Source: Thermoanaerobaculia bacterium
Lineage (GTDB): Bacteria > Acidobacteriota > Thermoanaerobaculia > Multivoradales > Multivoraceae
Direction of reading: 5' to 3'
Length of the DNA stretch: 64,000 nt
Assembly (NCBI GenBank): GCA_963666565.1
Contig: OY762911.1
Span: 3,392,001 to 3,456,000, forward strand
In this document: positions 6,565-58,143 of the stretch, piece by piece
Numbering within the stretch: position 1 is the stretch's first letter
Layout of the letters: each line of letters starts with the position of its first letter
Program-made: the position numbers and the translations under genes
The notes under the pieces: generated by a model
What the model saw: only the letters and a program-made list of their open reading frames with translations
Databases searched by the model: none
Told to the model about the DNA's origin: nothing

Positions 6565-6738
6565 GCCAGCCGGGGGCCGAAGGAGGGGTCCCAGGGGGCT
6601 GGAGGCAACCGACTCCCCGCGCCGTTCCATGAACCGGCGCCGAGGCGAAGGGCAGCCGACCGAAGCGAGCGCCAACTTCCCTTGAACCGAGAAGGCGCGA
6701 GCGTCCCCTGGGACCCCCTCCTTCGGCCCCCGGCTGGC
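6565..6738 (+). mobile_element. Long-stem intergenic element family B, copy 1 (MITE/REPIN-like or structured RNA)
   Basis: ~33 bp inverted arms 6565-6597 / 6705-6738 (1 indel); core AAGCGAGCGCCAAC...AAGGCGCGAGCG. Confidence 0.6.
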
Positions 6739-6804
6739 GGGTGCGCCCCCGGCAGCCGCCTCGCGCCTCGGCGGCCAGCGCCAGCCCAGGCTGGCGGGTA
6801 CAAC

Positions 6805-7527
6805 TCACAACAGCCGCCGTTCGCGCATCGACGTCCAGCGCCGGCCGCCGGCGAGGACGAGGTGGTCGACGAGGTCGACGCCGACCGCGGACGCGGCGCG
6901 GGAGAGGCGGCGGGTGAAGGCGACGTCTTCGGGGCTGGGTTCCGGGTCGCCGCTCGGGTGGTTGTGGAAGACGACCACCGCGGTCGCGCCGAGACGGAGC
7001 GCTTCCTTGAGGACGGCCCGGGGTTCGACGGAGGTGCGGTCCAGGCCGCCGACGAAGTGTTCGCGCTCGGCGATGATCCGGCCGCGGACGTCGGTGTAGA
7101 TCGCTCCCATCGCCTCCTGGTCGAAGCGCGCGTAGCGGAGGTTGAGGTAGCGGGCGACCGACGCGACGTCGCCCAGCGGCTTCCGCTCCGGCAGTTGCGC
7201 CCGCGCCAGCCGCCGGGCCAGTTCGACCGCGGCCAGGACGGTGGCCGCCTTGGCATCGCCCAGACCCTTGCGGCGCAACGACGGCAGATCGTGCTCCACC
7301 AGCAGGCCGAGCGCGGGCAGGCCGCCCAGCCCCCGGCCCTCGTCGTAGAGCAAGTCGCGCGCGAGCTCGAGTACGGAGAAGCCGCGGTGACCGGTCCGCA
7401 GCAGAATGGCGACGAGTTCGGAGTCGGTCAGGACGCCGGGCCCGTGCGCGAGCAGCCGCTCGCGCGGACGTTCCTCTGCCGGGACTTCGCGGAGCGTGCC
7501 GGCGGTCGGCGGGGTGTTCGGGCGCAT
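6805..7527 (-). CDS. radC: RadC family JAB-domain protein
   Basis: EERPRERLL, LTDSELVAILLRTG, HNHPSGDPEPSPED, DHLV; GGAGG ribosome-binding site. Confidence 0.93.
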   Translation of the reverse strand: MRPNTPPTAGTLREVPAEERPRERLLAHGPGVLTDSELVAILLRTGHRGFSVLELARDLLYDEGRGLGGLPALGLLVEHDLPSLRRKGLGDAKAATVLAAVELARRLARAQLPERKPLGDVASVARYLNLRYARFDQEAMGAIYTDVRGRIIAEREHFVGGLDRTSVEPRAVLKEALRLGATAVVVFHNHPSGDPEPSPEDVAFTRRLSRAASAVGVDLVDHLVLAGGRRWTSMRERRLL

Positions 7528-7596
7528 CGGTCCTCCTGTGGACCTAGACGGATCCGGCGCCGGAAAGCCAGTCTTCGCTGGTACGCTGCCGCGGCC

Positions 7597-8529
7597 ATGC
7601 GCGGACTCGACCTGCCCGCGTTTCTGAGACTCGACGCGCCTGCCCGGGAACCCGCCGTCTCGGTGCTTCCCGTTCCCTACGAGCGGACGACCTCCTGGGG
7701 ACAAGGCGCCGTGAACGGACCGGCCGCCCTGCTGCAGGCGTCTCACTACGTCGAGCTCTACGACGAGGAACTGGAGGTCGAGCCGTGCCGCATCGGCATC
7801 GAGACGCTGCCGCCGGTGGACGTAGACGGCAGCGACGGGTCCGTCCTGCGACGCATCAGCGCCGCCGTCGAGGCCGCGCTTCGCAACGGACGGTTCCCGG
7901 CAGCCCTCGGCGGCGAGCACACGGTGACGCCGGCCCTGGTGCGGGGCGCGCTCGACGCCGGCGCCTCCAACCTGGGCACGCCCGACGCCGGCGCTGCCGG
8001 CCTCGGCGTGGTCCAGTTCGACGCCCACGCGGATCTCCGCCAGACCTATGGCGGCACGGCCTGGAACCATGCCTGCGCCATGAGCCGCGTGCTGGATCTC
8101 GGTTTGCCGACGCTGGCCGTCGGCATCCGTTCGCTGACCCGGCCGGAGGCCGCGCGGATAGCGAACGAGCGTCTCCCGATCGTCTGGGCGGAGCAGCTCG
8201 ACGCCCTTCCCCGGCCGGAACTCGAAGCCCTGTTCGAAGGGCTCCTGGCTTCGCTTCCCGAGACGGTGTATCTGACCTTCGACCTCGACTTCTTCGATCC
8301 GTCCGTGTTGCCGGCGACCGGAACGCCCGAGCCGGGGGGCGGCGACTGGTATCAGGCGCTGGCGCTGCTGCGCCGGCTGTTCGACCGCAAGCGGGTGATC
8401 GCGATGGACATCGTCGAGCTGGCGCCGATCCCCGGCAACCCGGCCAGCGACTTCACCGCCGCCAAACTGCTCTACAAGTGCATCGGCTACCGCTTTCGGC
8501 GGCAACTGGCCGGAATGGCCGACGCCTGA
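7597..8529 (+). CDS. speB: Agmatinase (ureohydrolase family)
   Basis: GGEHTVT, FDAHADLR, DLDFFDPS, TGTPEPGG. Confidence 0.88.
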   Translation: MRGLDLPAFLRLDAPAREPAVSVLPVPYERTTSWGQGAVNGPAALLQASHYVELYDEELEVEPCRIGIETLPPVDVDGSDGSVLRRISAAVEAALRNGRFPAALGGEHTVTPALVRGALDAGASNLGTPDAGAAGLGVVQFDAHADLRQTYGGTAWNHACAMSRVLDLGLPTLAVGIRSLTRPEAARIANERLPIVWAEQLDALPRPELEALFEGLLASLPETVYLTFDLDFFDPSVLPATGTPEPGGGDWYQALALLRRLFDRKRVIAMDIVELAPIPGNPASDFTAAKLLYKCIGYRFRRQLAGMADA

Positions 8530-8536
8530 ATCTCCG

Positions 8537-10057
8537 TCAGACGCCGATCAGTCCGCCCGCGACGTAGACCCAGAACACGATCAGCACCAGGCCGATCAGG
8601 TTCAGCCACACCCCGGCCCGGACCATCTGCGGGATCGTGATCTCGCCGGAACCGAAGACGATCGCGTTGGGCGGCGTCGCCACCGGCATCATGAAGGCGC
8701 AGCTCGCCGCCAGCGTGGCGGGCACGATGAGGAGCAACGGGTCGACGTCGATGGCCGCCGCCGTCGCGCCGAGAATCGGCAGGAACGTGACCGTGGTGGC
8801 CGTGTTGCTGGTCACCTCGGTCAGCAGGATGAGCAGGGCGGCCGCTCCCAGCACGAGGATGAGCGGGGGCGTCCCTTCGAGCACCCGCAACAGCCCGCCG
8901 ATGAACTGGTCGACGCCGGTGGCGCGGATGGAGGCGGCGAGGCTCAGGCCGCCGCCGAAGAGCACGAGAATGCCCCAAGGGGCCTCCAGCGCCTTCTTCC
9001 AGCTCAGCAGGAAGACGCCGCGGCGCGGGTCGACCGGGGCCGCGAAGAGGCACAGGGCGGCGGCGATGGCGATTCCCGCGTCCGTCAGGCCCGAGAACGG
9101 CGCGACGCCGCCGATCTCGACCTGAACGAGCCAGCTCCCGGTGGTCCACAACGCCGCGGTGACGGCGAAGATGGCCAGCACGCCCTTCTCGGGACCCGAC
9201 ATCGGCCCCATCTTCCGCAGTTCGCTGCGGATGAGTTCCGCGCCCCCGGGCACCTCCCGGATACGCAGCGGAAAGGCGACGCGCGTCAGCACGATCCAGG
9301 CCAGGGGCAGGAACAGCACGCTCAGGCCGAGGCCGAACGGCAGCCAGTCGGCGAAGGTGATCTCGCGCCCGTAGGTGTCGCTCACGAACGCCATCATCTC
9401 CAGGTTGGGCGGCGTGCCGATCTTCGTCGCGACCCCGCCGATGGACGCCCCGTAGGCCGTTCCCAGAAGCAGGCAGATGGCGAACGGGAAGGTGGCGCCG
9501 GCCGGCGGCGCCTCGTCGCCCAGGCGCTGGCGGACGAGACCGATCACCGACAGGGCGATCGGCAGCATCATGACCGTCGTCGCCGTGTTCGATATCCACA
9601 TGCTGAGGGCGGCGCTGGCGATCATGAAGCCGAGCACCACGCGCCGGGGCCGGCTGCCGACGAGCAGGATGATGTGGAGCGCCATCCGCCGGTGAAGCCC
9701 CCAGGTCTGCATGGCCAGCGCGATCATGAAGCCGCCCAGGAAGAGGTAGATGTTCGGGTGGGCGTAGGGCGCCGCGACCTGCCGGATGCCGAGCTCGCCG
9801 CCGGTCAGGAACGGAATCGCCGCCAGGGGCAGCAGCGCCGTGGCCGGCACCGGCAGGGCCTCGGACAGCCACAGCGCCGCCATCAGGACGCCTACCGCCG
9901 CCACCGCGCGGCCGGCGCCGGAGAGGCCGGAGACGATCTCGCCGTCGGCGCCGACGGCGGCCTCCGGAATCGCGAAGTAGACCAGCGCCGCGAGGACCGG
10001 CGCTCCGATCAGCCCGACGCGGGCGAGCGCGCCGGCGCCGCGGTCCCGTTCACTCAC
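8537..10057 (-). CDS. SLC13/DASS family sodium:dicarboxylate/sulfate symporter
   Basis: SMWISNTAT, IGTPPN, TEVTSNTAT, PVATPPNAIVF; many TM segments. Confidence 0.9.
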   Translation of the reverse strand: MSERDRGAGALARVGLIGAPVLAALVYFAIPEAAVGADGEIVSGLSGAGRAVAAVGVLMAALWLSEALPVPATALLPLAAIPFLTGGELGIRQVAAPYAHPNIYLFLGGFMIALAMQTWGLHRRMALHIILLVGSRPRRVVLGFMIASAALSMWISNTATTVMMLPIALSVIGLVRQRLGDEAPPAGATFPFAICLLLGTAYGASIGGVATKIGTPPNLEMMAFVSDTYGREITFADWLPFGLGLSVLFLPLAWIVLTRVAFPLRIREVPGGAELIRSELRKMGPMSGPEKGVLAIFAVTAALWTTGSWLVQVEIGGVAPFSGLTDAGIAIAAALCLFAAPVDPRRGVFLLSWKKALEAPWGILVLFGGGLSLAASIRATGVDQFIGGLLRVLEGTPPLILVLGAAALLILLTEVTSNTATTVTFLPILGATAAAIDVDPLLLIVPATLAASCAFMMPVATPPNAIVFGSGEITIPQMVRAGVWLNLIGLVLIVFWVYVAGGLIGV

Positions 10058-11759
10058 TCCCCTCGCTGCCTCCTCGACGGACGTGGCGGCGGAGATAGGA
10101 CCTGGTCATCGTCGCGACCGCGCCCGAGAGCAGCAGCAGCGAGATCAGGTTCGGGAAGGACATGAGACCCAGGGCCACGTCGCCGAAGGTCCACACGGTG
10201 GTCAACGGCAGCAGGCAGCCCATGAAGAAGAAGCCGACGTAGACCCAGCGGTAGACGGGAATCGCCTTCGCGCCGAACAGGTACTCGGTCGAGCGGTCGC
10301 CGTAGTAGGACCAGGAGATCGCCGTCGAGATGGCGAACAGCAGGACCGACAGGGTGACGATCAGGTCGCCGCGGTCGCCCGGCAGGCCGAGACTGAAGGC
10401 CCGCGCCGTGAGCGGCGCCCCGTTCAGCAGAGCGCCTCCCTCGATCCTCGGTTCGGCGCCCTCGGCAAGGAGGGAACCGTCCGCGGCGAGTTCCAGCGTG
10501 CCGCTCCAGGCGGCGCCCTCGGCATCGACCACGCGTGCGTCGACGATCGTCGCGTGAAGGAAGACGAACGAGCCGCCGGCCGTTCCGTCCACGACCTGAA
10601 GCGCGCCGCCGCCCAGGCCGGATCGCTCCTCGCGCGCCGCGAGCAGCTCCGAGTCGTCGTCGAGGACCCGGTGAATGCCCTCGATCTCGTCGAGCCCGAA
10701 GCTCTGCGGCGCGGGATCGCGCCAGGCGTCCGTCGTCACGATGACCAGGCCGGTCATCGTGCAGATGACCAGGGTGTCGATGAACGGTTCGAGCGAAGCG
10801 ACGAGGCCCTCGCGCACCGGCTCGTCCGTCTTCGCCGTGGCGTGGGCGATCGGCGCGCTGCCCTGCCCCGCCTCGTTGCTGAACAGGCCGCGGCGGATGC
10901 CCCACATCATCGTCATCAGGAAGGAGCCGGCGGCGCCGCCGACCATCGAGGTCGGCCGGAACGCCTGCTCGACGATCAGGGCGAGGCTGGCCGGCACGCT
11001 CTCGATGTTCGCGAGCAGGATGAAGAGGGCGCCGCCGACGTAGATCACCGCCATGCCGGGGGCGAGAATCGAGGTCACCCGGCCGATGCGCCGGATGCCG
11101 CCGATGATGACCAGGGCCACGAGGGAAGCGAAGACCAGGCCGCTCCATACCGGCGCCAGGCCGAACTGGGATTCGAGCTGGTCGGCCATCGTGTTCGCCT
11201 GGTTCATGTTGCCGGTGCCGAAGGAACAGATGACGGCGAGGCCGGCGAACAGCATGGCCATCCACTTCCATTGCTGGCCAAGGCCCTTCTCGATGTAGTA
11301 CATCGGACCGCCGGAGACGGACCCGTCCTTGTGTACCTGCCGGTGGGCAACGGCCAGCGTGCACTCCGCGAACTTGAGCGCCATGCCGAAGAACGCAGTG
11401 ACCCACATCCAGAACAGCGCGCCGGGACCGCCCATGCGGATGGCGATGGCGACTCCGGCGATGTTGCCGATGCCGACGGTCGCGGAGAGGGCGGTGGTCA
11501 GCGCCTGGAAGTGGACCAGGTCGCCCTCGTCGTTCGGGTCGTTGTACTTGCCGCCGAGGATGGCCCAGGCGTGCCGGAAGCCGCGCAACTGGATCAGGCC
11601 CAGGCGGACGGTCACGAACAGGCCGGTGCCCAGCAGCACCAGGGCGAGGAGGGGCGCCTGCGGCGGCGTGTTCCAGACCACGCCCTCCAGCCAGCGCGCC
11701 ACCGGACCGAGCAGTCCGTTCACCCCATCCGCGATCGAACCGAACAGTTCCTCGGGCAT
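10050..11759 (-). CDS. Alanine/glycine:cation symporter (AGCS)
   Basis: ATVGIGNIAGVA, GGPGALFWMW, GGPMYYI, RGLFSNEAGQGSAP. Confidence 0.92.
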   Translation of the reverse strand: MPEELFGSIADGVNGLLGPVARWLEGVVWNTPPQAPLLALVLLGTGLFVTVRLGLIQLRGFRHAWAILGGKYNDPNDEGDLVHFQALTTALSATVGIGNIAGVAIAIRMGGPGALFWMWVTAFFGMALKFAECTLAVAHRQVHKDGSVSGGPMYYIEKGLGQQWKWMAMLFAGLAVICSFGTGNMNQANTMADQLESQFGLAPVWSGLVFASLVALVIIGGIRRIGRVTSILAPGMAVIYVGGALFILLANIESVPASLALIVEQAFRPTSMVGGAAGSFLMTMMWGIRRGLFSNEAGQGSAPIAHATAKTDEPVREGLVASLEPFIDTLVICTMTGLVIVTTDAWRDPAPQSFGLDEIEGIHRVLDDDSELLAAREERSGLGGGALQVVDGTAGGSFVFLHATIVDARVVDAEGAAWSGTLELAADGSLLAEGAEPRIEGGALLNGAPLTARAFSLGLPGDRGDLIVTLSVLLFAISTAISWSYYGDRSTEYLFGAKAIPVYRWVYVGFFFMGCLLPLTTVWTFGDVALGLMSFPNLISLLLLSGAVATMTRSYLRRHVRRGGSEGSE

Positions 11760-11782
11760 CGTGCGTCAGTCTCCCCTGCCAG

Positions 11783-12946: not shown

Positions 12947-13006
12947 CCTCCGATCCCCCCGGCGAACCCTACCAGCGCGGCCCGGACGGCGCCGTCCAGT
13001 TGTACA

Positions 13007-13051
13007 CAAGCCATTGAAAAACAACAACTTAGGGCGAAACTGTGCTATCAT
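13007..13051. promoter_or_regulatory. AT-rich divergent promoter region: dyad IHF-like site and extended -10 (TGcTATCAT, 13043-13051)
   Basis: CAAGCCATTGAAAAACAACAACTTAG matches WATCAANNNNTTR with 1 mismatch on each strand. Confidence 0.5.
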
Positions 13052-13084
13052 TGCCGCCTCGCATCAATATCTGGGCATTCGCGC

Positions 13085-14926: not shown

Positions 14927-15000
14927 ACGCCACGGGCGCCTGGGCCAGACCCTGAGCGGCCGGGTGCTGTAGGCTGACCGGGAAAGGACGCCGAGGGACG

Positions 15001-15993: not shown

Positions 15994-16023
15994 ACCCGGA
16001 TCTCCGCCGGCAGGAGCGCGACG

Positions 16024-19066: not shown

Positions 19067-19076
19067 GGTACCGAGA

Positions 19077-41212: not shown

Positions 41213-42673
41213 ATGGAAACGCCTCCCCTCGCGCTGACCTTCGACGACGTCCTGCTGGCCCCCGGCCTGTCGGAGGTCCATCCGAACGACGTCGACCTGG
41301 GAACCCGCCTCACCCGCGGCATCGGCCTGAACATCCCGCTGGTGTCGGCGGCGATGGACACCGTCACCGAGGCCGAACTCGCGATCGCCCTCGCCCAGGA
41401 GGGCGGCATCGGCGTGGTCCACAAGAACCTGTCGATCGAGGCCCAGGCCACGGAGGTCGACCGGGTCAAGCGCTCCGAAGCCGGCATGATCGTCAACCCG
41501 ATCACGATCCGTCCCGAACAGCGGATCCACGAAGCGCTGGATCTGATGGCGCGCTACAAGATCTCGGGCGTTCCGGTCACGGACCGCGACGGCCACCTGG
41601 TCGGCATCCTGACCAACCGCGACCTCCGGTTCGAGACGGACACGAACCTGCCCGTTTCCGCGCTGATGACCCGCGAGAACCTGGTCACCGTGCCGGTCGG
41701 CACGACCCTGGACCAGGCGAAGGCCGAGCTGCACCGCAATCGCATCGAGAAGCTGCTCGTCACGGACGACGAGGGCAACCTGAAGGGCCTGATCACGGTC
41801 AAGGACATCCAGAAGATGATGGACTTCCCCATCGCCTGCAAGGACGACCTGGGCCGGCTGCGGGTCGCGGCCGCGGTCGGGACGGGCGGCGACTGCCTGG
41901 ACCGGGCCGCGGCGCTGGCGGCGGCCCAGGCGGACGTGCTGGTGGTCGACTCGTCCCACGCCCACAGCCGCGGGGTGCTGGACGCGCTGGAGCGGATCCG
42001 CGAGGCGCTTCCCGACGTTCAGCTTCTTGCCGGCAACGTCGCGACGGCCGAGGGCGCCCGGGCGCTGGCCGAGCGGGGCGCGGACGGCATCAAGGTCGGC
42101 ATCGGCCCCGGCAGCATCTGCACCACGCGGGTCGTCACCGGCGCCGGCATGCCCCAGGTGACGGCGATCCAGGACGCGGCTTCCGAAGCCGGCGACCTGC
42201 CGGTGGTCGCGGACGGCGGCATCCGGTTCTCGGGCGACCTGACGAAGGCGCTCGCCTGCGGCGCCCACAGCGTGATGGTCGGTTCGCTGCTCGCCGGCAC
42301 GGAAGAGAGCCCCGGCGAGACGATCCTCTACCAGGGGCGCAGCTACAAGGCGTACCGCGGCATGGGCTCGCTGTCGGCGATGGCCGAGGGCAGCGCCGAC
42401 CGCTACTTCCAGTCCGGCGACCAACCGCTGGCGAAGCTGGTGCCGGAAGGCATCGAGGGCATGGTGCCGCACAAGGGCAGCGTCCACCAGGTGATCGGCC
42501 AGCTCACCGGCGGCCTCCGCTCCGGCATGGGCCTCTCCGGCTGCGCCAGCGTCGCCGAACTCAGAACCGGCGCCCGCATGATCCAGGTCACCGCCGCCGG
42601 CCAGAAGGAAGGCCACGCGCACGACGTCGTCATCACGAAGGAGGCGCCCAACTACTGGGTCGACCGGAACTGA
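41213..42673 (+). CDS. guaB: IMP dehydrogenase
   Basis: [11 protein letters not shown] pair, [17 protein letters not shown]. Confidence 0.97.
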
Positions 42674-42686
42674 GCGGAGTGGACCC

Positions 42687-42864
42687 GCCAGTCCGGGAGG
42701 CCAGGGGGGCGGCCCACTGCGGCCGCTCGCGCTTGGTCGGAAGATGAGAGGTTGGCGCTCGCTCCACTCCGCTCGCTTCGGCACGTCGTCGGTTTCCGGG
42801 TTGGCGTCGGAAGTCGCTCGCTTCGAGTCCGCAGGGGCCCGCCCCCCTGGCCTCCCGGACTGGC
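42687..42864 (-). mobile_element. Long-stem element family B, copy 2
   Basis: 36-bp arms 42687-42722 / 42829-42864 (34/36 complementary); reverse-complement core GGAGCGAGCGCCAAC...AAGCGCGAGCG. Confidence 0.6.
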
Positions 42865-43020
42865 TGGACGGCATCGGTGTGCCGTGACTTCGGGGCGGCC
42901 TCGATTTGGCAGGTCGGTGGTTTCGGGAATGGCACAGCAAGTCGCTCGAGTCCCCGGGGGACTGCCCTTGATCCCGGGACTGGCTGGACGGCATCGGCAT
43001 GCCGTGACTGCGGGGCTGCC
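42857..43020 (+). repeat. Imperfect direct repeat with 120-bp period
   Basis: GGACTGGCTGGACGGCATCGG..TGCCGTGACT.CGGGGC at 42857 and 42977. Confidence 0.85.
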
Positions 43021-45622: not shown

Positions 45623-47064
45623 CAGGAACGCGCCTCCGCGACCGCCGCCACGGGCGTGACGGCGGCGGGGCCGAAGCCCACGATCCGCCCGACGGAGTCG
45701 TCGGCGAAGGCGTCGGTGATCTCGACGTCGACGATCCGGCCGGCGGCGAACGCGCCCAGGTCGGGAGTCCCCGGACCGTCGCCGGCAACGTCGTTGATCA
45801 GGACGCGGCCGTCGACCTCCGGCGCCATCCCCTGGTGGCGCGCCTGGAGCAGGTGCCCCGTCTCTTCGCACGGCCCCTCGACCAGCATCGGCAGCGTCCT
45901 GCCGACAAGACGCCGCCGCCGCTCCAGCGCGATGTCGCGCTGAAGCTCGAGCAGGCGCTCCCGGCGTTCCTCCGCGACCCGGCGCGGCGGCCGGTCCGGC
46001 AGCGAAGCGGACGGCGTGTCGCCTTCCGGGCTGTAGAGAAACGCGCCCAGGTGGTCGAAGCGCACCTCGGAGACGAACTCGAGCAGCCGCTCGAAAGCGG
46101 GCTCGTCCTCGCCCGGAAAACCGACGATGAAGGTCGTCCGCAGGCTGATCTCCGGGTCGAGCTCGCGCGCCCGCTCGAAGATCCGCCGGTAGCGCTCGGC
46201 CGATCCGCCCCGGCGCATCGCCCGCAACACCTCCCGGTCGGCGTGCTGGAGCGGCATGTCGAGGTAGGACGCCACCCGCGGTTCGCTCGCCATCAGGCCG
46301 AGCAGCGACTCGTCCAGGGTGGTCGGATAGGCGTAGAGGAACCGGATCCATTCCGCGTCCGTCTCCGCCAGCAGGACCTCCACCAGGCGGGCGAGGCCGT
46401 GCCGGCCGTAGCCGAGATCCTCGCCGTAGCGCGTCGTGTCCTGCGCCACGAGCACGAGTTCGCGGGCGCCCCGCGCCACCAGGTCCCGCGCCTCGAGGAC
46501 CAGGCTCTCGATGGGGCGGCTGCGGAGGCGTCCCCGCCACACCGGAATCGCGCAGAAGGTACACGGGTTGTTGCAGCCCTCGGCGACCTTCAGGTACGCG
46601 TACCCGCCGGTGGTCAGCAGCCGCGAGTCCCGGTGGTCGAACACCAGGTGGGACGCCGCCGGTTCCGCCGCGGGCGCGCCGCCGAGCTGCACCAGGGCGC
46701 CGACCCGCCGCAGCGAATCGAGATCGACGAAGCCGTCGATCTCCGGGATCTCGGCGGCGAGTTCCCGGCCGTAACGGTTCGCCATGCAGCCCGCCACGAG
46801 CACCTGCCGCACCGCCTCCCCGGCGTCCGCCTTGCGGGCGGCGACGTCGAGGATGGCGTCGATCGACTCCTCCCGGGCCTCGTCGATGAAGCCGCAGGTG
46901 TTGACGATGACCGTCTCGGCCCGGTCCAGGTCCCCGACCAGCTCGAAGCCCTGGCGGTCGAGGACTCCGAGCATGACCTCGCTGTCGACGTGGTTCTTGG
47001 CGCAACCGAGACTGACCAGGCCGACGCGGTGTCCGGCCGCGTCGGCCGGCGGGCCGGTCTCCAC
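45622..47064 (-). CDS. rimO: Ribosomal protein S12 methylthiotransferase (start uncertain: GTG 47064 or 47250)
   Basis: SLGCAKN.VDSE, NTCGFI, EGCNNPCTFCAIP, APEVDG. Confidence 0.93.
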   Translation of the reverse strand: METGPPADAAGHRVGLVSLGCAKNHVDSEVMLGVLDRQGFELVGDLDRAETVIVNTCGFIDEAREESIDAILDVAARKADAGEAVRQVLVAGCMANRYGRELAAEIPEIDGFVDLDSLRRVGALVQLGGAPAAEPAASHLVFDHRDSRLLTTGGYAYLKVAEGCNNPCTFCAIPVWRGRLRSRPIESLVLEARDLVARGARELVLVAQDTTRYGEDLGYGRHGLARLVEVLLAETDAEWIRFLYAYPTTLDESLLGLMASEPRVASYLDMPLQHADREVLRAMRRGGSAERYRRIFERARELDPEISLRTTFIVGFPGEDEPAFERLLEFVSEVRFDHLGAFLYSPEGDTPSASLPDRPPRRVAEERRERLLELQRDIALERRRRLVGRTLPMLVEGPCEETGHLLQARHQGMAPEVDGRVLINDVAGDGPGTPDLGAFAAGRIVDVEITDAFADDSVGRIVGFGPAAVTPVAAVAEARS

Positions 47065-47069
47065 CCGCG

Positions 47070-47222
47070 GCTGGGGGCGCGGGTCCGGCGACCCGCTCCC
47101 GCCGCGGGCGGCCAGGGAACGCTGGGTGCGCGGGTCTTCTGACCCGCTCCCGCCGTAGGCGGCCAGAGAACGCTGGGTGCGCGGGTCTTCTGACCCGCTC
47201 CCGCCGTAGGCGGCCAGAGAAC
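47070..47222 (+). repeat. Tandem array of three 51-bp family A units
   Basis: GCTGGGTGCGCGGGTCTTCTGACCCGCTCCCGCCGTAGGCGGCCAGAGAAC at 47121 and 47172; diverged unit at 47070. Confidence 0.95.
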
Positions 47223-49142: not shown

Positions 49143-49260
49143 CTGGTCGGCTCCTGTGGGGTGCTCTCTGCTGCTTGTGGGGAGTTTCGGCGCCCGATGC
49201 GGCTCGGGGCCGGGCCATTCTATCCGGCGGCGGGGAAACCGCCGCCGGGCCCCGGGCGGC

Positions 49261-50811: not shown

Positions 50812-50891
50812 GGGCGGAGTCTACGCGGGGGCCTCGGGAGTCGCTAAGGTACCGCTTCCAACGAGACTTCCCTGCACCCTGGAGCGCCGCG

Positions 50892-52514
<1,623 letters not shown>

Positions 52515-52526
52515 CGCGGCGGAAAC

Positions 52527-52570
52527 GGGTGCGCCGGCGTCCACGCCGGCATCCGGCGCGAAGCGCCGGC
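52527..52570 (+). repeat. REP-like double hairpin between convergent genes
   Basis: GGGTGC-GCCGGCG-TCCA-CGCCGGC-at-CCGGCGC-GAA-GCGCCGG. Confidence 0.65.
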
Positions 52571-52662
52571 TGCCATCCGCGCGCCCGATGACGGGCGCAC
52601 GGACTGGTTCACGGGTGACGCGGATCGCGCCACCCGGGTCCCGGACCTTCTGCCGCGCTAGC

Positions 52663-53529
52663 TCAGTCCGCCGACACTCCCAAGTGCTCGTTGAACCACG
52701 AGACGAGCGCACTCTCGGCGCGCTCGCCGTCCTCGCCGCGGAAACCGTGGGCGGCGCCCTCGATGACGATCAGCTTCGAGGCGACGTTCGCCTCGTCGAA
52801 GGCGGCCTTGATCCTCTCGCTGTTGGCGATCGGCACGAGCTGGTCCTGGTCGCCGTGGATCAGCAGGGTCGGCGGATCGTCCTCGCTGACGAACAGGATC
52901 GGCGAGATGTCGGCGGCCTTGGCGGGGTCGAAGTCGAGGGCCGGGAAACGGTCGTTCGGACCGACGATCCCCTGCAGGTCGACCGGCGGGAAGTAGGCGA
53001 CGACGGCCGCCACCCGGTTGCCGGTCCGCTCGATCGGGTCCTTGCTCTCGGCGTCTCCTTCGTCCGAGGCGTTGCCGAGCATCAGCGACAGGTGGCCGCC
53101 GGCGCTGCCGCCGAAGACGCCCATCCGGTCCGGGTCGATGCCGAAGTCGTCCGCGTTCAGGCGGATGTAGCGCACCGCCCGCCGCACGTCGGCGACCGCG
53201 TCGGGCACCTTGAACAGCGGCGCCGAGCCGTGGCGGACCATGAACACGGCGTAGCCGTGGTCCAGAAGATCGCCCACCGCGCCGGACCGGCCGCTCTCGC
53301 CAGCCACGATCCGGTGCGGGTCGGACCAGCGGGAGAACCAGCCGCCGCTGACCATGAAGAGCACGGCCGCTCCGTTCTGCTCTTCGGGCACCAGGGCGTC
53401 GAAGGTCATGGCCATGCCCATCTTGTGTCCGTAGACGACGTCGGCGTGGACGTCCGCGGCGGCGCCGCCGGCAACCAGCGGGGCGGCCAGCAGGGCCGCG
53501 GCGAGGAGGAGGGGGAGTGCGCGCTTCAT
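52663..53529 (-). CDS. Secreted alpha/beta hydrolase (esterase)
   Basis: Signal peptide, SGGW, GGSAGGH, HGDQD, HGF. Confidence 0.85.
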   Translation of the reverse strand: MKRALPLLLAAALLAAPLVAGGAAADVHADVVYGHKMGMAMTFDALVPEEQNGAAVLFMVSGGWFSRWSDPHRIVAGESGRSGAVGDLLDHGYAVFMVRHGSAPLFKVPDAVADVRRAVRYIRLNADDFGIDPDRMGVFGGSAGGHLSLMLGNASDEGDAESKDPIERTGNRVAAVVAYFPPVDLQGIVGPNDRFPALDFDPAKAADISPILFVSEDDPPTLLIHGDQDQLVPIANSERIKAAFDEANVASKLIVIEGAAHGFRGEDGERAESALVSWFNEHLGVSAD

Positions 53530-53646
53530 CTGTGTTCTCCTGATGTGTCGTGTCCTGATGTCCGGTGGATGTTCCGGCGCCCGAGGAATCCAGGCCCTCC
53601 GCGGATCGCTCCCGCGGACCGCGCCGGCGCCCGAGTCGTCCCCGCC

Positions 53647-55326
53647 CTACGGCCGGGCGCCTCCCGTTGTCTCCTGCGGCGACGCCGCGGGCCTGTCCCG
53701 TTCCGCGGCAACCATATCCGCCACGTCGGCGAGGAGCTCTTTCGCGTCGTAGACGATGCCGTCCTTGATCGTGTAGCGGACACCGCCGACCCGCTCCGGG
53801 CGGCCGGTGTCGTCGTTCAGCCGGACCGCGCCGGTGCCGTAGAGCACCTTCAGGTTGGCGATCGGGTTCTCGTCCACGACCAGCAGGTCGGCGAGCATCC
53901 CCTCACGCACGATCCCGAACTCGATGTCGGCGCCACTCGCCTTCGCGAGTTCCTCGGCGCCGTTCATCGTCGCCGAGCGGATGACCTCGAGCGGATGGAA
54001 GCCCGCCTCCTGCAGCATCTCCAGTTCGAGGATCGTGCCGAACCCGTAGGTCTGGTAGATAAAGCCCGAGTCGGAGCCCACGGTGACCCGGCCGCCGCGG
54101 TTCTTGTACTCGTTCAGGAACCGCATCCAGACGCGGTAGAAGTTCTTCCAGGCCACCTCGTCCGCGGTCGTCCAGTAGAACCAGTACGAGCCGTGGTCCA
54201 GGCGGCTGGGGACGTAGAACTCGGCGAGGCTCGGCAGCGTGTAGTCCGCGTGCCAGTCGGCGTTGCGCGCCCGCATCACGTCGCGGCCGGCGGAGTAGAT
54301 CGCCATCGTCGGGTTGATGAAGAAGTCGAGTTCCAGGAACTCCTCAAGCAGGGCGTTCCAGCGCTCGCCGCCGGGCTCGACCATGCTCCACTGCCGAGCC
54401 ACCTGACCGAAGCGGAACTGCTCGTCCATGTAGTTCATCTCGGCCGGCCAGGGCTGCACGTCGTGGCGCTCGTACATCGACTCGAACAGGCCGTAGAAGT
54501 GGGTCATCCCGACCAGGCCCAGGCGCGCGGAGTCGATCGCGTTCATGTTGGCGACGCCCATCTGGTCGAGGTGGGCGGTCGATCCCATGCCCAGACTCCT
54601 CGACTCGTCCAGCAGCGCCGCCATGATCTTCGGGGGAAACGCGCCGAGCTTGAGACCGTCCACGCCCTTCTCGTGGGCGTAACGCACCCACTCGCGGGCA
54701 TCGGCGGGGGTGCGGATGTCGCGGTCCTTCCACTCCTTGCCGCTGCCCGGACGCTGGTACGAGACGAACCGCGGCGCGGCGATCTCGTTCGTGCGGCTGC
54801 GCTCCTTCTCGCTCAGGTCCCACTCCAGCGGACCGGTAGGCACGCCGCGCGCGGTCGTGATGCCGTGCGCCAGCCACAGCTTGTAGACGTAGTCCGCCCG
54901 CGGCGCCTTGGGTACGCCGCCGGTGTGGACGTGAAGATCGACCAGGCCCGGCAGCACCCAGGAGCCGGAGAGATCGAGCTCACGGTCGGCGTCCTTCGGG
55001 CGCCGGCTCTCGTCGATCTCGGTGTTGGCCATGCCCAGGCTCTTGATCTCCTCGATCCGGTTGCCCTCGATGACGATGTCGACCGGCCCCATCGGCGGTG
55101 CGCCGGTGCCGTCGACCACCATCACGCCGCGCAGAATCAGCCGGTCGAAGGGGCCCTCGCCTTCTCCTTCCGGCCGCGGGGGCGCCGGTTCGACCAGCTT
55201 CGGCTCTTCTTCCTCTTCCGCGGCCACGGGCACTGCCGCCAGCCACGTCAGGGACAGGCAGACCAGGCCGAGCACGGGGAAGCGCCTTCGCGCGCGTTGT
55301 CCGGGAGGGACGAGTGACGATCGCAT
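53647..55326 (-). CDS. Secreted amidohydrolase family protein
   Basis: PGLVDLHVH, GSDSG, ADLLVV; AAGGAG RBS before ATG 55326; hydrophobic leader. Confidence 0.82.
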   Translation of the reverse strand: MRSSLVPPGQRARRRFPVLGLVCLSLTWLAAVPVAAEEEEEPKLVEPAPPRPEGEGEGPFDRLILRGVMVVDGTGAPPMGPVDIVIEGNRIEEIKSLGMANTEIDESRRPKDADRELDLSGSWVLPGLVDLHVHTGGVPKAPRADYVYKLWLAHGITTARGVPTGPLEWDLSEKERSRTNEIAAPRFVSYQRPGSGKEWKDRDIRTPADAREWVRYAHEKGVDGLKLGAFPPKIMAALLDESRSLGMGSTAHLDQMGVANMNAIDSARLGLVGMTHFYGLFESMYERHDVQPWPAEMNYMDEQFRFGQVARQWSMVEPGGERWNALLEEFLELDFFINPTMAIYSAGRDVMRARNADWHADYTLPSLAEFYVPSRLDHGSYWFYWTTADEVAWKNFYRVWMRFLNEYKNRGGRVTVGSDSGFIYQTYGFGTILELEMLQEAGFHPLEVIRSATMNGAEELAKASGADIEFGIVREGMLADLLVVDENPIANLKVLYGTGAVRLNDDTGRPERVGGVRYTIKDGIVYDAKELLADVADMVAAERDRPAASPQETTGGARP

Positions 55327-55360
55327 GAACTCTGCTCCTTGCGTTCTGCGGCGCAAGCTC

Positions 55361-56371
55361 CTAGGCGCGCGAGAGCGAAGGGCGCTCGTCCGAATCGACG
55401 ACGGCGCTCAGATAGAGCAGCGCCTGCCCTGGCTGCGGCGCCCGCACCAGCAGGTTGTGGGTGGCGGCGAGCACGTCGCGGCGGCTGATCTGGCCCACCA
55501 GCTGGCGGCCGCGGAGCACCGGCAGCCGGCGGTACGGCGTGCTCTTGAAGATGCGCGCGATGGACAGGATGTCCGTGTCCTCGGAGATCGTGCGCGCCTT
55601 GCGGTCCATGAACGCGGAGGCGTCGGTCGAATCGAGCTCGAAGTCCCCCGGCTCGCCCGCTTCGTCCGGCGCCGCCAGGTCCTCGAGGCCGAGTTCGCCG
55701 CTGCGCTCGCGCAGGATCGCCCGCCGGCCCTCGATCGCCGAGGTCAGGTGATGCTCGGCCGCGAGCACGTCGCGGCGGCTGACCTGACCCACCAGGGCGC
55801 CGCCGTCGACCACCGGCAGCCGGCGGTACTCCGTATCGAGAAAGCGCTGGGCGATCTCCAGCAGCGGCTCGGTGCCGTCGATCACCCGGCCGAAGTCCGT
55901 GTTCATGAAGGCATCGACCGGCGCCGCCGGCAACTGGTCGTAGGCCAGGCCGAGCAGCACCTCCATCGAGAACTTCTCGGAGAAGACGCCGAGCAGCTTG
56001 CCGTCGCCGTCGACGACCGGCGCGCCCGATATCCGGTTCCTGAGCAGCAGTCCGATCGCGTCGAGAGCCGACATGCCGGCCTGCAGCTTGACCAGGCGGG
56101 TGGCCATGAAGTCGCGGGAGCGGGTGCGCCGGCTCCGGGCCAGCCCCCGTTCGTCCGCGGCGCGAGCCGTCACCGTGAGGACCGCCAGGCAACTCTTCTC
56201 CGACAGCATCCCGAGGTAACGGCGCCCCTCGCCGATCACCGGCGCGCCGGTGATGCGGTGGCGCAGGAGGGCGCTGACGCCGTCGTAGACGTGGGTGCGC
56301 GGATGCACCGTGACCAGCCTGGTCACCATGACGTCCCGCGCGAGCTGGGGCTTGTCGATCGTCTTGTCCAT
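55361..56371 (-). CDS. Four-CBS-domain protein
   Basis: Two GAPV...SEK repeats followed by two YRRLPV...SRRDVL repeats. Confidence 0.85.
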   Translation of the reverse strand: MDKTIDKPQLARDVMVTRLVTVHPRTHVYDGVSALLRHRITGAPVIGEGRRYLGMLSEKSCLAVLTVTARAADERGLARSRRTRSRDFMATRLVKLQAGMSALDAIGLLLRNRISGAPVVDGDGKLLGVFSEKFSMEVLLGLAYDQLPAAPVDAFMNTDFGRVIDGTEPLLEIAQRFLDTEYRRLPVVDGGALVGQVSRRDVLAAEHHLTSAIEGRRAILRERSGELGLEDLAAPDEAGEPGDFELDSTDASAFMDRKARTISEDTDILSIARIFKSTPYRRLPVLRGRQLVGQISRRDVLAATHNLLVRAPQPGQALLYLSAVVDSDERPSLSRA

Positions 56372-56415
56372 CGGGCCGCTTCATCGTAGCAGCGGGGCGG
56401 TGGCCACGGCGGCGC

Positions 56416-56487
56416 GGGCCTCGCGGCCGGCGCGTTGTTTTCGGCCGCCTTCGGCGGCAGCGGGTCGGAAGACCCGCGCACCCAGCG
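56416..56487 (-). repeat. REP-like family A copy
   Basis: Reverse complement GCTGGGTGCGCGGGTCTTCCGACCCGCTGCCGCCGAAGGCGGCCGAAAAC. Confidence 0.9.
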
Positions 56488-56590
56488 GACGGCCAAGTCC
56501 GCGCGCGACAGCGCGGCCTCGCGGCTGCGAGCGCTGTTAGAGTTGCCGTTTCCGCAAGTCCAGGTTCACCGTCCGTCAAGGGAGAGTTCC

Positions 56591-57910
56591 ATGACTCGTT
56601 CCGCCCAAGCGTTTCGCCTGCTGACCGCGCTTCTCGCGGTCGCCTTTCTGAGCCTCGGTCTCGTCGCCTGCGACCAGAGCCGCGCCGACGTCCCGGTCGA
56701 GGGACCCCGCGACCTTGCGCGCGTGGCCCCTGAGACCGTCGGCATGTCGAGCGACCGGCTCGCGCGCCTCGACGACGCCATGCAGGGGCTCGTCGACGAC
56801 GGTCTGCTCGCCGGCATCACGACGATGATCTCGCGCCACGGCAAGGTCGCGCACTTCGGCACGTTCGGCCATCGCGACCTCGAGGCCGGTTCCGAGATGA
56901 CCGAGGACGTCATCTTCCGCATCTACTCGATGACCAAGCCGATCACCGGCGTCGCTCTGATGATCCTCTACGAGGAAGGCAAGTTCCGGCTCTCCGACCC
57001 GGTCCACCGCTACATCCCCGAGTTCGAGGGCCTGGTCGTCGCCAAGGAGGACGGGCCGAACGGCCAGCCGATCACCGAGCCGGCCGATCACCCGATGACC
57101 ATCCGCGAGCTGATGGCGCACACCGCCGGACTCAGCTACGGCATCTTCTCGGACACCCAGGTCGACGCGATGTACCGGGAGGCGGGCGTCATCGTCGACC
57201 CCGACCAGACCCTCAAGGGCATGATCGAGGCGCTGTCGGAGATCCCGCTGCTGTACCAGCCGGGCTCGAGATGGCACTACAGCGTCGCCGTCGACGTCCA
57301 GGGCTACCTGGTCGAGGTCCTGTCGGGCCAGCCCTTCGACGAGTTCCTGAACGAACGCCTGTTCGGCCCGCTGGGCATGAACGACACCGCGTTCCATGTA
57401 GCGGCCGACAAGGCGGACCGCTTCGCCCAGGTCTACACCCACGACGAGGACGGCAACCTGATGGCCCAGGAGGGCTTCGGCGGGCGCCGCAGCTACCTCG
57501 ATCCGCCCGCCCACCTCTCCGGCGGCGGCGGCCTGGTGTCCACCACGATGGACTACATGCGCTTCTCCCAGATGCTGCTGAACGGCGGCGAGCTGGACGG
57601 CGTCCGCATCCTCGCGCCCTCCACCGTCAAGCTGATGCACCTGAACCACCTGCCCCGCGAACTCAAGGAGATGTCGCCCGGCACCGGCTTCGGCCTGGAC
57701 TTCGCCGTCGTCCTCGACCCGGTCGCCGCCGACGGCATCTCGAAGGGAGAGTACTACTGGGGCGGCGCCGCCGGCACCTGGTTCTGGATCGATCCGAAGG
57801 AAGACCTCGTCTTCGTCGGAATGATCCAGCACTTCGGCCCGCGGCGACCCGACGTCCGCTCGCTGAGCCGGCGCCTCACCTACCAGGCGATCCTCGAACC
57901 GGCGTCGTAG
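56591..57910 (+). CDS. Serine hydrolase (beta-lactamase-like) lipoprotein
   Basis: Lipobox LVAC, SMTK, HTAGL, WHYS, WGGAAGT. Confidence 0.88.
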   Translation: MTRSAQAFRLLTALLAVAFLSLGLVACDQSRADVPVEGPRDLARVAPETVGMSSDRLARLDDAMQGLVDDGLLAGITTMISRHGKVAHFGTFGHRDLEAGSEMTEDVIFRIYSMTKPITGVALMILYEEGKFRLSDPVHRYIPEFEGLVVAKEDGPNGQPITEPADHPMTIRELMAHTAGLSYGIFSDTQVDAMYREAGVIVDPDQTLKGMIEALSEIPLLYQPGSRWHYSVAVDVQGYLVEVLSGQPFDEFLNERLFGPLGMNDTAFHVAADKADRFAQVYTHDEDGNLMAQEGFGGRRSYLDPPAHLSGGGGLVSTTMDYMRFSQMLLNGGELDGVRILAPSTVKLMHLNHLPRELKEMSPGTGFGLDFAVVLDPVAADGISKGEYYWGGAAGTWFWIDPKEDLVFVGMIQHFGPRRPDVRSLSRRLTYQAILEPAS

Positions 57911-57958
57911 CGAGCCGGCGGGAGGCCGCGGCCGTCAATCGACCGGCAACGACTCTCA

Positions 57959-58143
57959 GCCCGGCCCAAGGGCATGAAGGGGTCGGGTCCCAGGTGCCTC
58001 TGAACGAGCGACGGCCCAAGCAGCACGGGCACCGACGTCGAACCGGAGCGAGTGAAGCGGAGCGAGCGCAAACCCCACCCCCCTCTTCTCAAGCGCGAGC
58101 GTCAGCTGGGACCCGACCCCTTCATGCCCGCCCAAGGCCGGGC
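57959..58143 (+). mobile_element. Long-stem element family B, copy 3
   Basis: Perfect 24-bp arms 57970-57993 / 58106-58129 plus an outer 8-bp stem; core GGAGCGAGCGCAAAC...AAGCGCGAGCG. Confidence 0.6.

What the first reader, a model, noticed from the sequence alone, without database searches (positions are those of the whole stretch)
6565..58143. Dispersed ~175-185 bp element whose long terminal stems differ between copies but stay paired around a conserved core
Seen: three intergenic copies at 6565-6738 (+), 42687-42864 (-) and 57959-58143 (+). Shared layout: CAGCC-[left arm]...AGCGAGCGC(C/A)AAC-N15-17-AAG(G)CGCGAGCG-[right arm]-GGCGGGT. The arms differ between copies (ggggccgaaggaggggtcccagggg; gggaggccaggggggcgggcccctgcgg; gggcatgaaggggtcgggtcccag) yet each is 24-36 bp near-perfectly self-complementary. 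Copies 2 and 3 also share CGAGCGAC...ACCGACG.CG..CCG.AGCGAG. Classical MITEs conserve the TIR sequence; here pairing and the internal core are conserved instead. Inference: a structured ncRNA family or a non-autonomous ssDNA/HUH-type mobile element. The GAGC repeats recall HUH Rep-binding elements (resemblance only). No cognate enzyme is in the window.
Basis: partly seen in the sequence, partly recalled or inferred. Interest (0 to 1): 0.8.

Follow-up and report, generated by a model that had tools for sequence, protein, structure and literature searches.

The report
Structured three-way-junction repeat element family
The three look-alike stretches belong to a family of about 86 copies of a roughly 200-base non-coding repeat that folds into a very long stem closing two smaller hairpins, has come and gone between related species, and matches no described RNA or transposon family.

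Summary
The three copies belong to a family of 86 full-length and about 8 partial copies in this 4.79 Mb, 70% GC genome. Copies average only 63% identity, yet each keeps a terminal stem of about 37 bp (median 35 matches, 2 mismatches). Two inner hairpins also covary. On 33 copies from two other species, 97.1% of cells pair against 80.1% in shuffles, and 28 of 36 pairs change on both sides. Changes are almost all Watson-Crick to Watson-Crick. G-U makes up 1.5% of pairs, against 6.4% in this genome's tRNAs. Copies sit just behind stop codons in a preferred orientation (62 of 86). They are present or absent at the same locus in different species, with no target duplication seen. No Rfam family matches and no parent insertion sequence was found. 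Strong matches are confined to the genus; weak matches with the same architecture occur elsewhere in the order. Best reading: a REPIN- or MITE-like non-autonomous element whose folded single strand, probably DNA, is what matters. The enzyme is unknown and a link to an HUH enzyme is not shown.

The parts
6551..6751 (+). Copy 1, full length (model positions 1-205)
   Evidence: G000:C1:3398551-3398751; folds at -73.6 kcal/mol as DNA, z -7.6
6560..6597 (+). Copy 1, left arm of the long closing stem P1 (GTCCAGCC, variable segment, GGAGGGGTCCCAGGGG)
6604..6657 (+). Copy 1, inner hairpin P2 (GGCAACCGAC ... GAAGGGCAGCC around a variable apical part)
   Evidence: alignment columns 62-70 pair with 105-114, e.g. 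GC:45 AU:26 CG:7 at one pair
6664..6703 (+). Copy 1, inner hairpin P3 (AGCGAGCGC ... GCGCGAGCG: GC pairs, tandem G.A/A.G, GCGC stem, pyrimidine-rich loop)
   Evidence: columns 123-130 pair with 160-167, e.g. GC:65 CG:14 AU:3
6705..6742 (+). Copy 1, right arm of P1, ending in GGCGGGT
6781..6802 (+). Collapsed terminal hairpin (CCAGCC-CA-GGCTGGCGGGT), probably the remnant of a second copy whose interior was lost
   Evidence: read directly; a comparable arms-only remnant lies at genome 1397997-1398042
42674..42878 (-). Copy 2, full length. Right arm 42683-42722, P3 42724-42763, left arm 42829-42869. Its GGCGGGT end lies 8 nt from the stop codon of the IMP dehydrogenase gene (41213-42673, +)
42900..42995 (-). 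Partial fourth copy (model positions about 1-105, left half only), in tandem with copy 2 and absent from the same locus in G001 and G003
   Evidence: (genome 3434900-3434995)
57945..58156 (+). Copy 3, full length, member of the young 18-copy subfamily. Left arm 57956-57996, P3 58061-58101, right arm 58103-58147
57911..58196 (+). Whole block between the two convergent stop codons at the copy-3 locus. Ten related species have only 5-16 nt here, so the inserted unit (~290 nt) is longer than the ~205-nt conserved element
   Evidence: metatranscriptome contigs of relatives also join 57897 to 58195 with 5 letters between

Best explanation
The element is a non-coding, non-autonomous interspersed repeat. 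The conserved part is about 205 nt and the inserted unit is about 250-290 nt. Its behaviour resembles REPINs and MITEs. What is preserved is the fold of one strand: a ~37-bp closing stem (P1) around a three-way junction with two hairpins (P2, P3) and a few fixed junction motifs.

Shown here: the family, the fold, the covariation, gain, loss and replacement at fixed intergenic sites, a position just behind stop codons, and restriction of strong matches to the genus.

Inferred: the fold matters as single-stranded DNA, as for REP/REPIN hairpins or IS200/IS605 ends. A structure-specific enzyme acting in trans copies or moves it. Arm complementarity is kept partly by selection for copying competence and partly by hairpin-templated correction (template switching or repair within the palindrome). 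This would explain why substitutions, and even an indel, appear on both arms at once with almost no G.T intermediates. Once inserted, the element is probably co-transcribed into the 3' untranslated region of the upstream gene. That could explain the orientation bias through selection on mRNA effects.
For: Family size and divergence: 94 hits, 86 full length, mean identity 63%.

Pairing within each copy: median 35 matched bp, 2 mismatches and 0 gaps in the arms; 82 of 86 copies have at least 25 matched bp. Cross-copy arms do not pair.

Covariation: 30 of 36 RNAalifold pairs show double-sided changes among 82 copies. On 33 copies from G037 and G034 that were not used to build the model, 97.1% of cells pair against 80.1% shuffled (0 of 500 shuffles reach it) and 41-52% when partners are slid. 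28 of 36 pairs change on both sides.

Watson-Crick only: WC 1112, GT 17, AC 9, other 25, against 71 G-U in 1104 tRNA stem pairs of the same genome.

Gain and loss: the copy-3 locus holds the element in 2 of 19 loci fetched from 31 genus genomes (one copy truncated), while 10 have 5-16 nt spacers. The copy-2 locus is full in 2 of 11 relatives, holds short hairpin remnants in 3, and lacks the element in the others. One locus is filled in G037 and empty in G000; the insert is ~250 nt with no target duplication.

Copy number varies: 86 (G000), 68 (G037), 27 (G034), 16, 4, 0, 0.

Same-locus pairs: of 575 pair positions, 454 are unchanged, 91 changed on both sides WC to WC, 13 involve G-U, 8 are broken and 9 are other. 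This includes a mirrored one-base insertion in L018/L273.

Nearby REP units share the element's orientation: 32 of 33 upstream and 9 of 9 downstream.
Against: No enzyme is linked to the element. The only Y1_Tnp (RAYT-like) ORF of the genome is flanked by REP arrays, and the nearest copy of this element is more than 45 kb away. G006 (at least 30 copies, 98% complete) and G037 (68 copies, 94% complete) gave no Y1 match. No TnpB was found, and no long version carrying an ORF was found.

Orientation follows the neighbouring gene (62 of 86 against 26 of 86) and not replication direction (36 of 86). This is the reverse of what IS200/IS605-type lagging-strand ssDNA insertion would predict, and it fits an RNA-level role.

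Conserved non-canonical features, such as the tandem G.A in P3 and the internal loops in P2, are typical of RNA motifs.

Pairing is also kept at same-locus copies, which a purely selfish element need not do. However, only 5 of 16 same-locus copies are each other's nearest relative, so replacement could account for it.

Element boundaries are fuzzy and only one clean filled/empty pair was analysed. No transposition intermediate or excision was seen. The only runs available were contigs.
Confidence: 0.5

Rival explanations
1. It is a cis-acting RNA element of 3' untranslated regions. It would be co-transcribed with the upstream gene and act as a very stable hairpin that blocks 3' exonucleases, serves as an RNase III site, or insulates convergent genes. 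It spread as a repeat but is kept at each locus by host selection, as described for Correia, ERIC and REP/BIME elements (recalled, not read here).
For: 62 of 86 copies have a well-scoring ORF whose stop codon lies within 250 nt (mostly 0-40 nt) of the same end of the element, in one relative orientation, against 26 of 86 for the other end. There is no replication-strand bias. The folds are very stable. A tandem G.A and internal loops are conserved. Pairing is kept at same-locus copies between species.
Against: G-U pairs are about four times rarer than in this genome's tRNAs, and G-U against A-C counts do not single out a strand (17 against 9; 34 against 19). The element is dispensable at any given locus. 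Two complete genomes of the genus have none. There is no U-tract after the stem. No expression data exist for the organism.
Confidence: 0.22
2. It is a free-standing structured non-coding RNA gene family, possibly a new RNA class or ribozyme carried by a repeat. Each copy would be transcribed on its own, and the three-way junction would be the functional core.
For: A multi-helix fold with covariation in three helices. Junction motifs are conserved while helices vary. The same architecture with different sequence occurs in three other genera of the order.
Against: There is no Rfam match of any kind. G-U is scarce. 86 copies with rapid turnover and presence/absence between species is unusual for an RNA gene. 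No conserved promoter or terminator was identified, and this was not tested thoroughly. No neighbouring protein gene is conserved.
Confidence: 0.13
3. The perfect arms are a by-product of mutation and not of function. Long quasi-palindromes are corrected to perfect ones by replication template switching or repair within the hairpin, so an otherwise decaying old repeat keeps looking structured.
For: Changes are almost only WC to WC. Transversion flips are common (for example CG:39 GC:37 at one pair). A mirrored indel exists. Paired sites diverge at about two thirds of the unpaired rate (19% against 30%). Template-switch correction of quasi-palindromes is established in E. coli (PMC7202029, abstract seen in the listing).
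Against: Conserved imperfections (tandem G.A, bulges, internal loops) and conserved junction sequence should be erased by pure correction, but they persist across subfamilies and species. New insertions and copy-number swings need an active spreading process. This reading explains how the arms are maintained, not the origin or spread of the element. It is therefore better seen as one component of the main explanation.
Confidence: 0.1

Closest known systems
REPINs (REP doublets forming hairpins) mobilised by RAYT / TnpA-REP tyrosine HUH transposases
   Same: Both are non-coding, intergenic and present in tens to hundreds of copies. Both are inherited vertically within a lineage. Both form a long hairpin from two inverted arms around a spacer, with compensatory changes across the hairpin (PMC3116915, passages read). 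Neither makes a target duplication. In this genome the element lies beside true REPs and in their orientation.
   Different: The arms are not copies of the genome's REP. The conserved part is the central three-way junction, not the ends. The element is about 200 nt with two inner covarying hairpins. The RAYT-like gene is not flanked by it. Species without a detectable Y1 gene still carry many copies.
   Same: They are small, non-autonomous, intergenic and often just downstream of genes. They are co-transcribed and their inverted ends form long hairpins. Effects on mRNA can depend on orientation.
   Different: Those families have conserved terminal inverted repeats and usually a short target duplication (TA). 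Here no duplication was seen at the one clean filled/empty site, the middle of the arms is hypervariable, and no parent insertion sequence shares the ends.
   Same: They lie directly behind the stop codon of a gene in a fixed orientation. Their sequence is highly variable but an imperfect long hairpin is kept, and it is recognised as folded single-stranded DNA.
   Different: The copies are dispersed singly around the chromosome and not in cassette arrays. Nearby pairs are mostly inverted (9 of the 12 nearest-neighbour pairs I counted by hand within 5 kb; coordinates). The consensus ends are GTCCAGCC / GGCGGGTG, not GTTRRRY core sites. The length of about 200 nt and the structured centre do not fit. 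No integron integrase search was made.
IS200/IS605-family ends and their non-autonomous derivatives (PATEs)
   Same: Transposition depends on single-strand hairpins, makes no target duplication and uses asymmetric ends.
   Different: No TnpB was found, and the only Y1 ORF is the REP-associated one. There is no strand bias relative to replication. The hairpin is ten times longer than those ends (recalled).

Membership tests
REPIN / REP-RAYT system | The element consists of two inverted copies of the genome's REP sequence | tested here: not met
   The REP of this genome (GGGTCRGARGACCCGCGCACCC, 915 sites with up to 4 mismatches) is a separate family. The arms of this element carry none of it. 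Only a 6-8 nt resemblance (GCACCC) exists at one end.
REPIN / REP-RAYT system | A cognate single-copy RAYT gene is flanked by the same repeats | tested here: not met
   The one Y1_Tnp match (ORF 748983-749858) is flanked by REP arrays. The nearest copies of this element lie at 693423 and 794671.
REPIN / REP-RAYT system | A long hairpin in the single strand, with compensatory changes | tested here: met
REPIN / REP-RAYT system | Presence of the element depends on presence of a RAYT across genomes | tested here: inconclusive
   Y1_Tnp was found in 19 of 31 genus genomes. Among genomes without a match, copy counts are 0, 0, 4, 16 and 48 (the 48 are a short variant) in five complete genomes, at least 30 in G006 and 68 in G037. 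The comparison is confounded by kinship and assembly state.
MITE (derivative of a DDE insertion sequence) | A target-site duplication flanks the insert | tested here: not met
   G037 filled against G000 empty: the junctions are ...gttcag|gcgcat... and ...gggatcg|ctcacg..., with no repeat of 3 bp or more. None is evident at the copy-3 locus. Only one clean pair was available.
MITE (derivative of a DDE insertion sequence) | A full-length insertion sequence in the genome or relatives shares the ends | tested here: not met
   None of the 94 nhmmer hits lies in the five IS110 copies or the six copies of the Rep-like IS. The ends of the Rep-like IS, read directly, are unrelated. Paired copies flank ordinary genes and not transposases. 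ISfinder was not available.
MITE (derivative of a DDE insertion sequence) | Terminal inverted repeats are conserved in sequence | tested here: inconclusive
   The outer 8-10 nt and the inner ~17 bp of the arms are conserved, while the middle 12-15 bp is hypervariable. The true ends of the inserted unit lie 20-55 nt further out and differ between subfamilies.
Any Rfam 15 RNA family | A match to a curated covariance model | tested here: not met
   0 matches at gathering score in the 64-kb window. Only 3 chance-level hits (E 3.8-6.6) were found around copy 1. No family recurred over the element in 20 loci at E up to 5.
Integron attC site | R''/R' core sites (RYYYAAC / GTTRRRY; recalled) and arrangement in cassette arrays with one orientation | tested here: not met
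   The consensus ends are GTCCAGCC and GGCGGGTG. Copies are dispersed on both strands. An integron integrase was not searched for.
IS200/IS605 family (PATE) | TnpA (Y1) and/or TnpB encoded by related full-length elements | tested here: not met
   No TnpB-type match. There is a single Y1 match, of RAYT type by its REP context.

The most novel reading that the evidence does not exclude
The conserved three-way junction is the recognition module of a mobilisation or processing system not yet described. One possibility is a structure-specific enzyme, not the known RAYT, that copies a folded ~200-nt single strand and rebuilds one arm from the other. That would explain mirrored substitutions and indels and the near absence of wobble pairs. 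The other possibility is that the element is a new class of multi-copy structured RNA, possibly catalytic. The same architecture with unrelated arm sequences in three other genera of the order would then mark an old, order-wide system.
Probability: 0.2. Interest if true: 0.8.

Novelty: new variant of a known kind. Interest (0 to 1): 0.55.

Why it matters
Small structured repeats such as REPINs, Correia and ERIC elements shape bacterial intergenic space, but for most of them the copying mechanism is unknown. This family offers an unusually clean data set. It has 86 diverged copies per genome, dozens of related genomes with the same loci filled, empty or replaced, and three helices that change almost only by complete Watson-Crick swaps. 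That makes two questions directly testable. First, is hairpin complementarity in such elements kept by selection or by templated correction between the arms? Second, which enzyme reads a 200-nt folded strand? For annotation, the covariance model built here separates these elements from genes and from the REP family in an uncultured Acidobacteriota lineage. In the contig-level runs of the organism that were laid on the window, contigs stop at or near the copies.

Tried and rejected
Rfam, three ways: nothing.

Derivative of the 1869-nt Rep-like, CTAG-associated insertion sequence noted earlier in this genome: six near-identical copies were found, but neither BLAST nor direct reading of its ends shows any likeness.

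IS110 bridge-RNA-like origin: five identical IS110 copies exist, but none of the 94 family hits lies in them.

TnpB/omega-RNA: no TnpB.

Retroelement: one clear RVT_1 match at 378700-379110 and one weak match; the nearest full copy in the list starts at 443298.

Composite transposon: nearby inverted pairs of the element flank ordinary genes (a restriction-modification system, PTPS, RuvB, ApbE, an alcohol dehydrogenase). 4 of 14 ORFs matched no Pfam family, and none of the matches is a transposase.

Replication-strand bias: none, 36 of 86.

Strand choice from wobble pairs: G.T against A.C counts of 34:19 and 17:9 are too weak to name a strand.

Hammerhead-like reading of the junction: considered from the junction strand lengths (recalled core motifs); no Rfam ribozyme model matched.

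Expression: no RNA run of the organism was found. The two metatranscriptomes hold only relatives at 90-99% likeness as contigs, and the organism's own runs are contigs of unknown library type, so nothing can be said about transcription.

Search of earlier notes by sequence: no look-alike.

Literature: 'Candidatus Multivorans' gave 0 papers. A six-term search for MITE/compensatory/hairpin papers gave nothing describing this element among the 12 titles listed.

A class-wide model search failed once for technical reasons and was repeated.

My gene calls come from a crude codon-score ORF picker, so the 62 of 86 and 26 of 86 figures are approximate.

Full report
**What is in the window.** The three stretches are as described. 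A three-way alignment shows 78% mean column identity. The window is G000:C1:3392001-3456000 of a single-contig genome of 4,786,144 bases with 70.2% GC.

**The family.** blastn and three rounds of nhmmer find 94 hits on both strands all around the chromosome. 86 of them cover at least 140 of 194 model positions. The window also holds a partial copy (42900-42995, minus strand) in tandem with copy 2 and a collapsed terminal hairpin at about 6781-6802. The copies are old and diverse. Mean pairwise identity is 63%. One young cluster has 18 copies (86% identity, including copy 3), and 17 copies are singletons at a 27% distance cut.

**The fold.**
- Each copy folds alone into the same shape: a closing stem of about 37 bp around two inner hairpins. 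z-scores against dinucleotide shuffles are -7.6, -5.8 and -4.5 for the three window copies.
- I aligned the left arm to the reverse complement of the right arm within each copy. The median is 35 matches, 2 mismatches and 0 gaps. The totals are 2939 matches, 174 mismatches and 105 gap columns. 82 of 86 copies have at least 25 matched pairs.
- Arms of different copies do not fit each other: the median score is 20 against 58, and 0.13% of 1500 cross pairs reach the same-copy median.
- On a MAFFT alignment of 82 copies (4 truncated or composite copies left out), RNAalifold predicts 36 pairs, and 30 of them have changes on both sides.
- P2 pairs GGC-AA-GYG-AC with G-RCG-CA-GCC around a variable tip.
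- P3 is GC pairs, a tandem G.A/A.G, then a GCGC stem that switches to GCCC/GGGC, ACCC/GGGT or GCAC/GTGC, with a pyrimidine-rich loop.
- So the 'GAGC repeats' are the two strands of a hairpin.
- Conservation is not only structural. The outer GTCCAGCC / GGCGGGTG, the inner ~17 bp of the arms and the junction strands are conserved in sequence. The middle 12-15 bp of the arms, the P2 tip and the P3 loop vary.

**Independent test of the fold.** I built a covariance model from the 82 copies. It aligned 33 copies from two other species (G037, G034) that played no part in building it. On these:
- 97.1% of 1163 cells form standard pairs, against 80.1% after shuffling partners (0 of 500 shuffles as high) and 41-52% when partners are slid by 1-3 columns.
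- 28 of 36 pairs change on both sides (196 cells).
- Only 15 cells show a one-sided change.

The alignment is fitted to the model, which favours pairing. The slid and shuffled controls and the alignment-free arm test point the same way.

**An unusual signature.** Pairs are almost exclusively Watson-Crick: 1112 WC, 17 G.T, 9 A.C and 25 other. Stems of this genome's own tRNAs, as drawn by ARAGORN, have 71 G-U in 1104 pairs, or 6.4%. tRNAs carry some fixed G-U positions, so this is a rough yardstick. Transversion swaps with no wobble route are common, for example CG:39 against GC:37 at one pair.

**Where the copies sit.**
- Using a crude codon-score ORF picker, 62 of 86 copies have a well-scoring ORF on the opposite strand whose stop codon lies within 250 nt of the GGCGGGTG end, mostly 0-40 nt away. 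26 of 86 have a co-oriented ORF ending near the other end.
- In the window, Pfam names the neighbours. Copy 1 lies between a RadC-like gene's stop and a nickel-insertion (LarC-type) gene's start. Copy 2 is 8 nt behind the IMP dehydrogenase stop. Copy 3 lies between convergent beta-lactamase-family and acyl-CoA dehydrogenase genes.
- Orientation does not follow replication: 36 of 86 are co-directional with the fork, by GC skew.
- The genome also holds about 915 copies of a 22-nt REP, often as arrays or inverted pairs. Where a REP lies within 300 nt of the element it almost always has the same orientation: 32 of 33 upstream and 9 of 9 downstream.

**Gain, loss and replacement.**
- Copy-3 locus. 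19 loci were fetched from a search of 31 genus genomes. 2 hold the element (G037 complete, G034 truncated by another insertion). 10 have only 5-16 nt between the two stop codons. 3 have 65-105 nt of other sequence. 2 have other large inserts. 2 could not be assessed. The block present in G000 is about 290 nt, longer than the conserved 205 nt.
- Copy-2 locus. Among 11 relatives, 2 have a full copy, 3 have a ~45-nt hairpin remnant that starts like the element, 4 lack it, and 2 have unrelated sequence.
- One site is filled in G037 and empty in G000 (1440788-1440819). The insert is about 250 nt: 44 nt of GGC/GAC-rich sequence, the element, then 17 nt. No target duplication is present.
- Alignment of the flanks of the young subfamily confirms that similarity runs 20-55 nt beyond the model on both sides, with variants.
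- Copy numbers differ widely between species: 68 and 27, and 16, 4, 0, 0 plus 48 of a shorter variant in five complete genomes.

**Same-locus copies.** 16 pairs of copies share flanking genes between G000 and G037 or G034. Their unpaired positions differ at 30% and their paired positions at 19%. Of 575 pair positions, 454 are unchanged, 91 changed on both sides from one Watson-Crick pair to another, 13 involve G-U, 8 are broken and 9 are other. One pair (L018/L273) even shows a one-base insertion mirrored on the other arm. Only 5 of the 16 relatives' copies have the same-locus G000 copy as their nearest relative. Others rank 2nd to 38th and sometimes belong to another subfamily. So part of this pattern is replacement of one variant by another at the same site, not change in place.

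**Distribution.**
- The model finds strong matches in every genome of the genus that was searched (6 of 6 and 8 of 8 in the two draws).
- It finds only weak full-length matches (33-55 bits) in 3 of 54 other genomes of the order.
- It finds nothing in the 62 genomes outside the genus in the class-level draw (8 of the same order, 54 of other orders), with the stricter filters used for large sets.
- The weak matches fold into the same architecture (35-45-bp closing stem and inner hairpins) with unrelated arm sequences.
- A scan of named genome records with a 22-letter core pattern hit mostly MAGs labelled Acidobacteriota, Thermoanaerobaculia, Holophagales or 'Candidatus Multivorans'.

**Search for a partner.**
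- The genome has one Y1_Tnp (RAYT-like) ORF, flanked by REP arrays and far from any copy of this element.
That sequence's ends are unrelated.
- Y1_Tnp is found in 19 of 31 genus genomes. The two complete genomes without the element also lack it, but G006, G037, G033 and G010 carry the element without a Y1 match. The test is inconclusive.
- Nearby inverted pairs of the element flank ordinary genes.
- Of the 35 window ORFs scanned, 34 matched other, non-transposase families and one matched nothing.

**Reading.** The family behaves like REPINs and MITE-type repeats: non-coding, intergenic, multi-copy, hairpin-forming, gained and lost between species. Three things are new here:
- The layout: a conserved three-way junction, hypervariable mid-arms, and two further covarying hairpins.
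- The element fails the defining tests for REPIN, MITE, attC and IS200/IS605 derivatives (see the membership table).
- Wobble pairs are almost completely avoided.

This last point, the mirrored indel and the absence of a target duplication make a DNA-level, hairpin-dependent process the best guess. Arm-to-arm templated correction may contribute. Template switching at quasi-palindromes is established in E. coli (PMC7202029, abstract seen in the listing). The gene-linked orientation and the conserved tandem G.A keep an RNA-level role alive. No expression data could be obtained. I put the structured mobile-element reading at about 0.5, a 3'-UTR RNA element at about 0.2, a free-standing RNA family at about 0.13, and pure mutational maintenance of a dead repeat at about 0.1.

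Noticed in passing
window 6406-6449 (+); genome-wide: A two-hairpin REP unit (GGCCGCCTTCGGCGGG-AGC-GGGTCAGAAGACCCGCGCACCCAG) lies about 100 nt upstream of copy 1. The genome has 915 sites matching its 22-nt core with up to 4 mismatches, often in tandem arrays of 2-7 or as inverted pairs about 100 nt apart. A single RAYT-like ORF (genome 748983-749858) is followed by four such units.
   Followed up: partly
G010 (complete genome of the same genus), e.g. G010:C1:2678059-2678198: This species carries 48 matches that are mostly 110-150 nt long and cover only model positions about 30-179. They form a shorter variant family that lacks the outer part of the long stem.
   Followed up: no
e.g. G034:C2:1959825-1960093, G037:C21:1781-2056, G022:C1:997195-997467, G033:C1:1994614-1994885: Several genomes hold copies of about 270 nt that still match the model end to end, so they carry an insert of about 70 nt. 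The position and nature of the insert were not examined.
   Followed up: no
genome 208419-212111 (locus L236): A three-gene restriction-modification island (Eco57I-type methylase, BsuBI/PstI-type endonuclease, RAMA-domain protein) has a lower GC content (65.8%). It sits exactly between two inverted copies of the element.
   Followed up: partly
flank on the stop-codon side of many copies, e.g. loci L002, L015, L067; G037 locus L251: Between the upstream stop codon and the GGCGGGTG end there is often a run of short imperfect GGC/GAC-rich tandem repeats (for example gcggcggag or gcgcggcg units). At the one clean insertion this run belongs to the inserted block.
   Followed up: partly
copy-3 locus in G034 (L107) and G011 (L113): Two relatives share a different insert of about 1.1 kb at this same intergenic site. 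In G034 it has cut away most of the element and left only its last ~60 nt. The site looks like a hot spot for several kinds of insertion.
   Followed up: no
genome 347495, 725427, 740466, 804435, 2464105 (IS110); 130132, 2129448, 2194481, 2432164, 3152977, 4483696 (1869-nt element): There are five IS110-family copies with identical match scores, and six near-identical copies (98.7-100%) of a 1869-nt element ending in ...GGAGTCTAG. Both are recently active and neither is related to the finding.
   Followed up: partly
window 45835-47142 (+): A 435-codon ORF picked by my crude caller has a low coding score (37.4) and no Pfam match at E up to 1e-5. It may not be a real gene, or it may be an unnamed one.
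   Followed up: no
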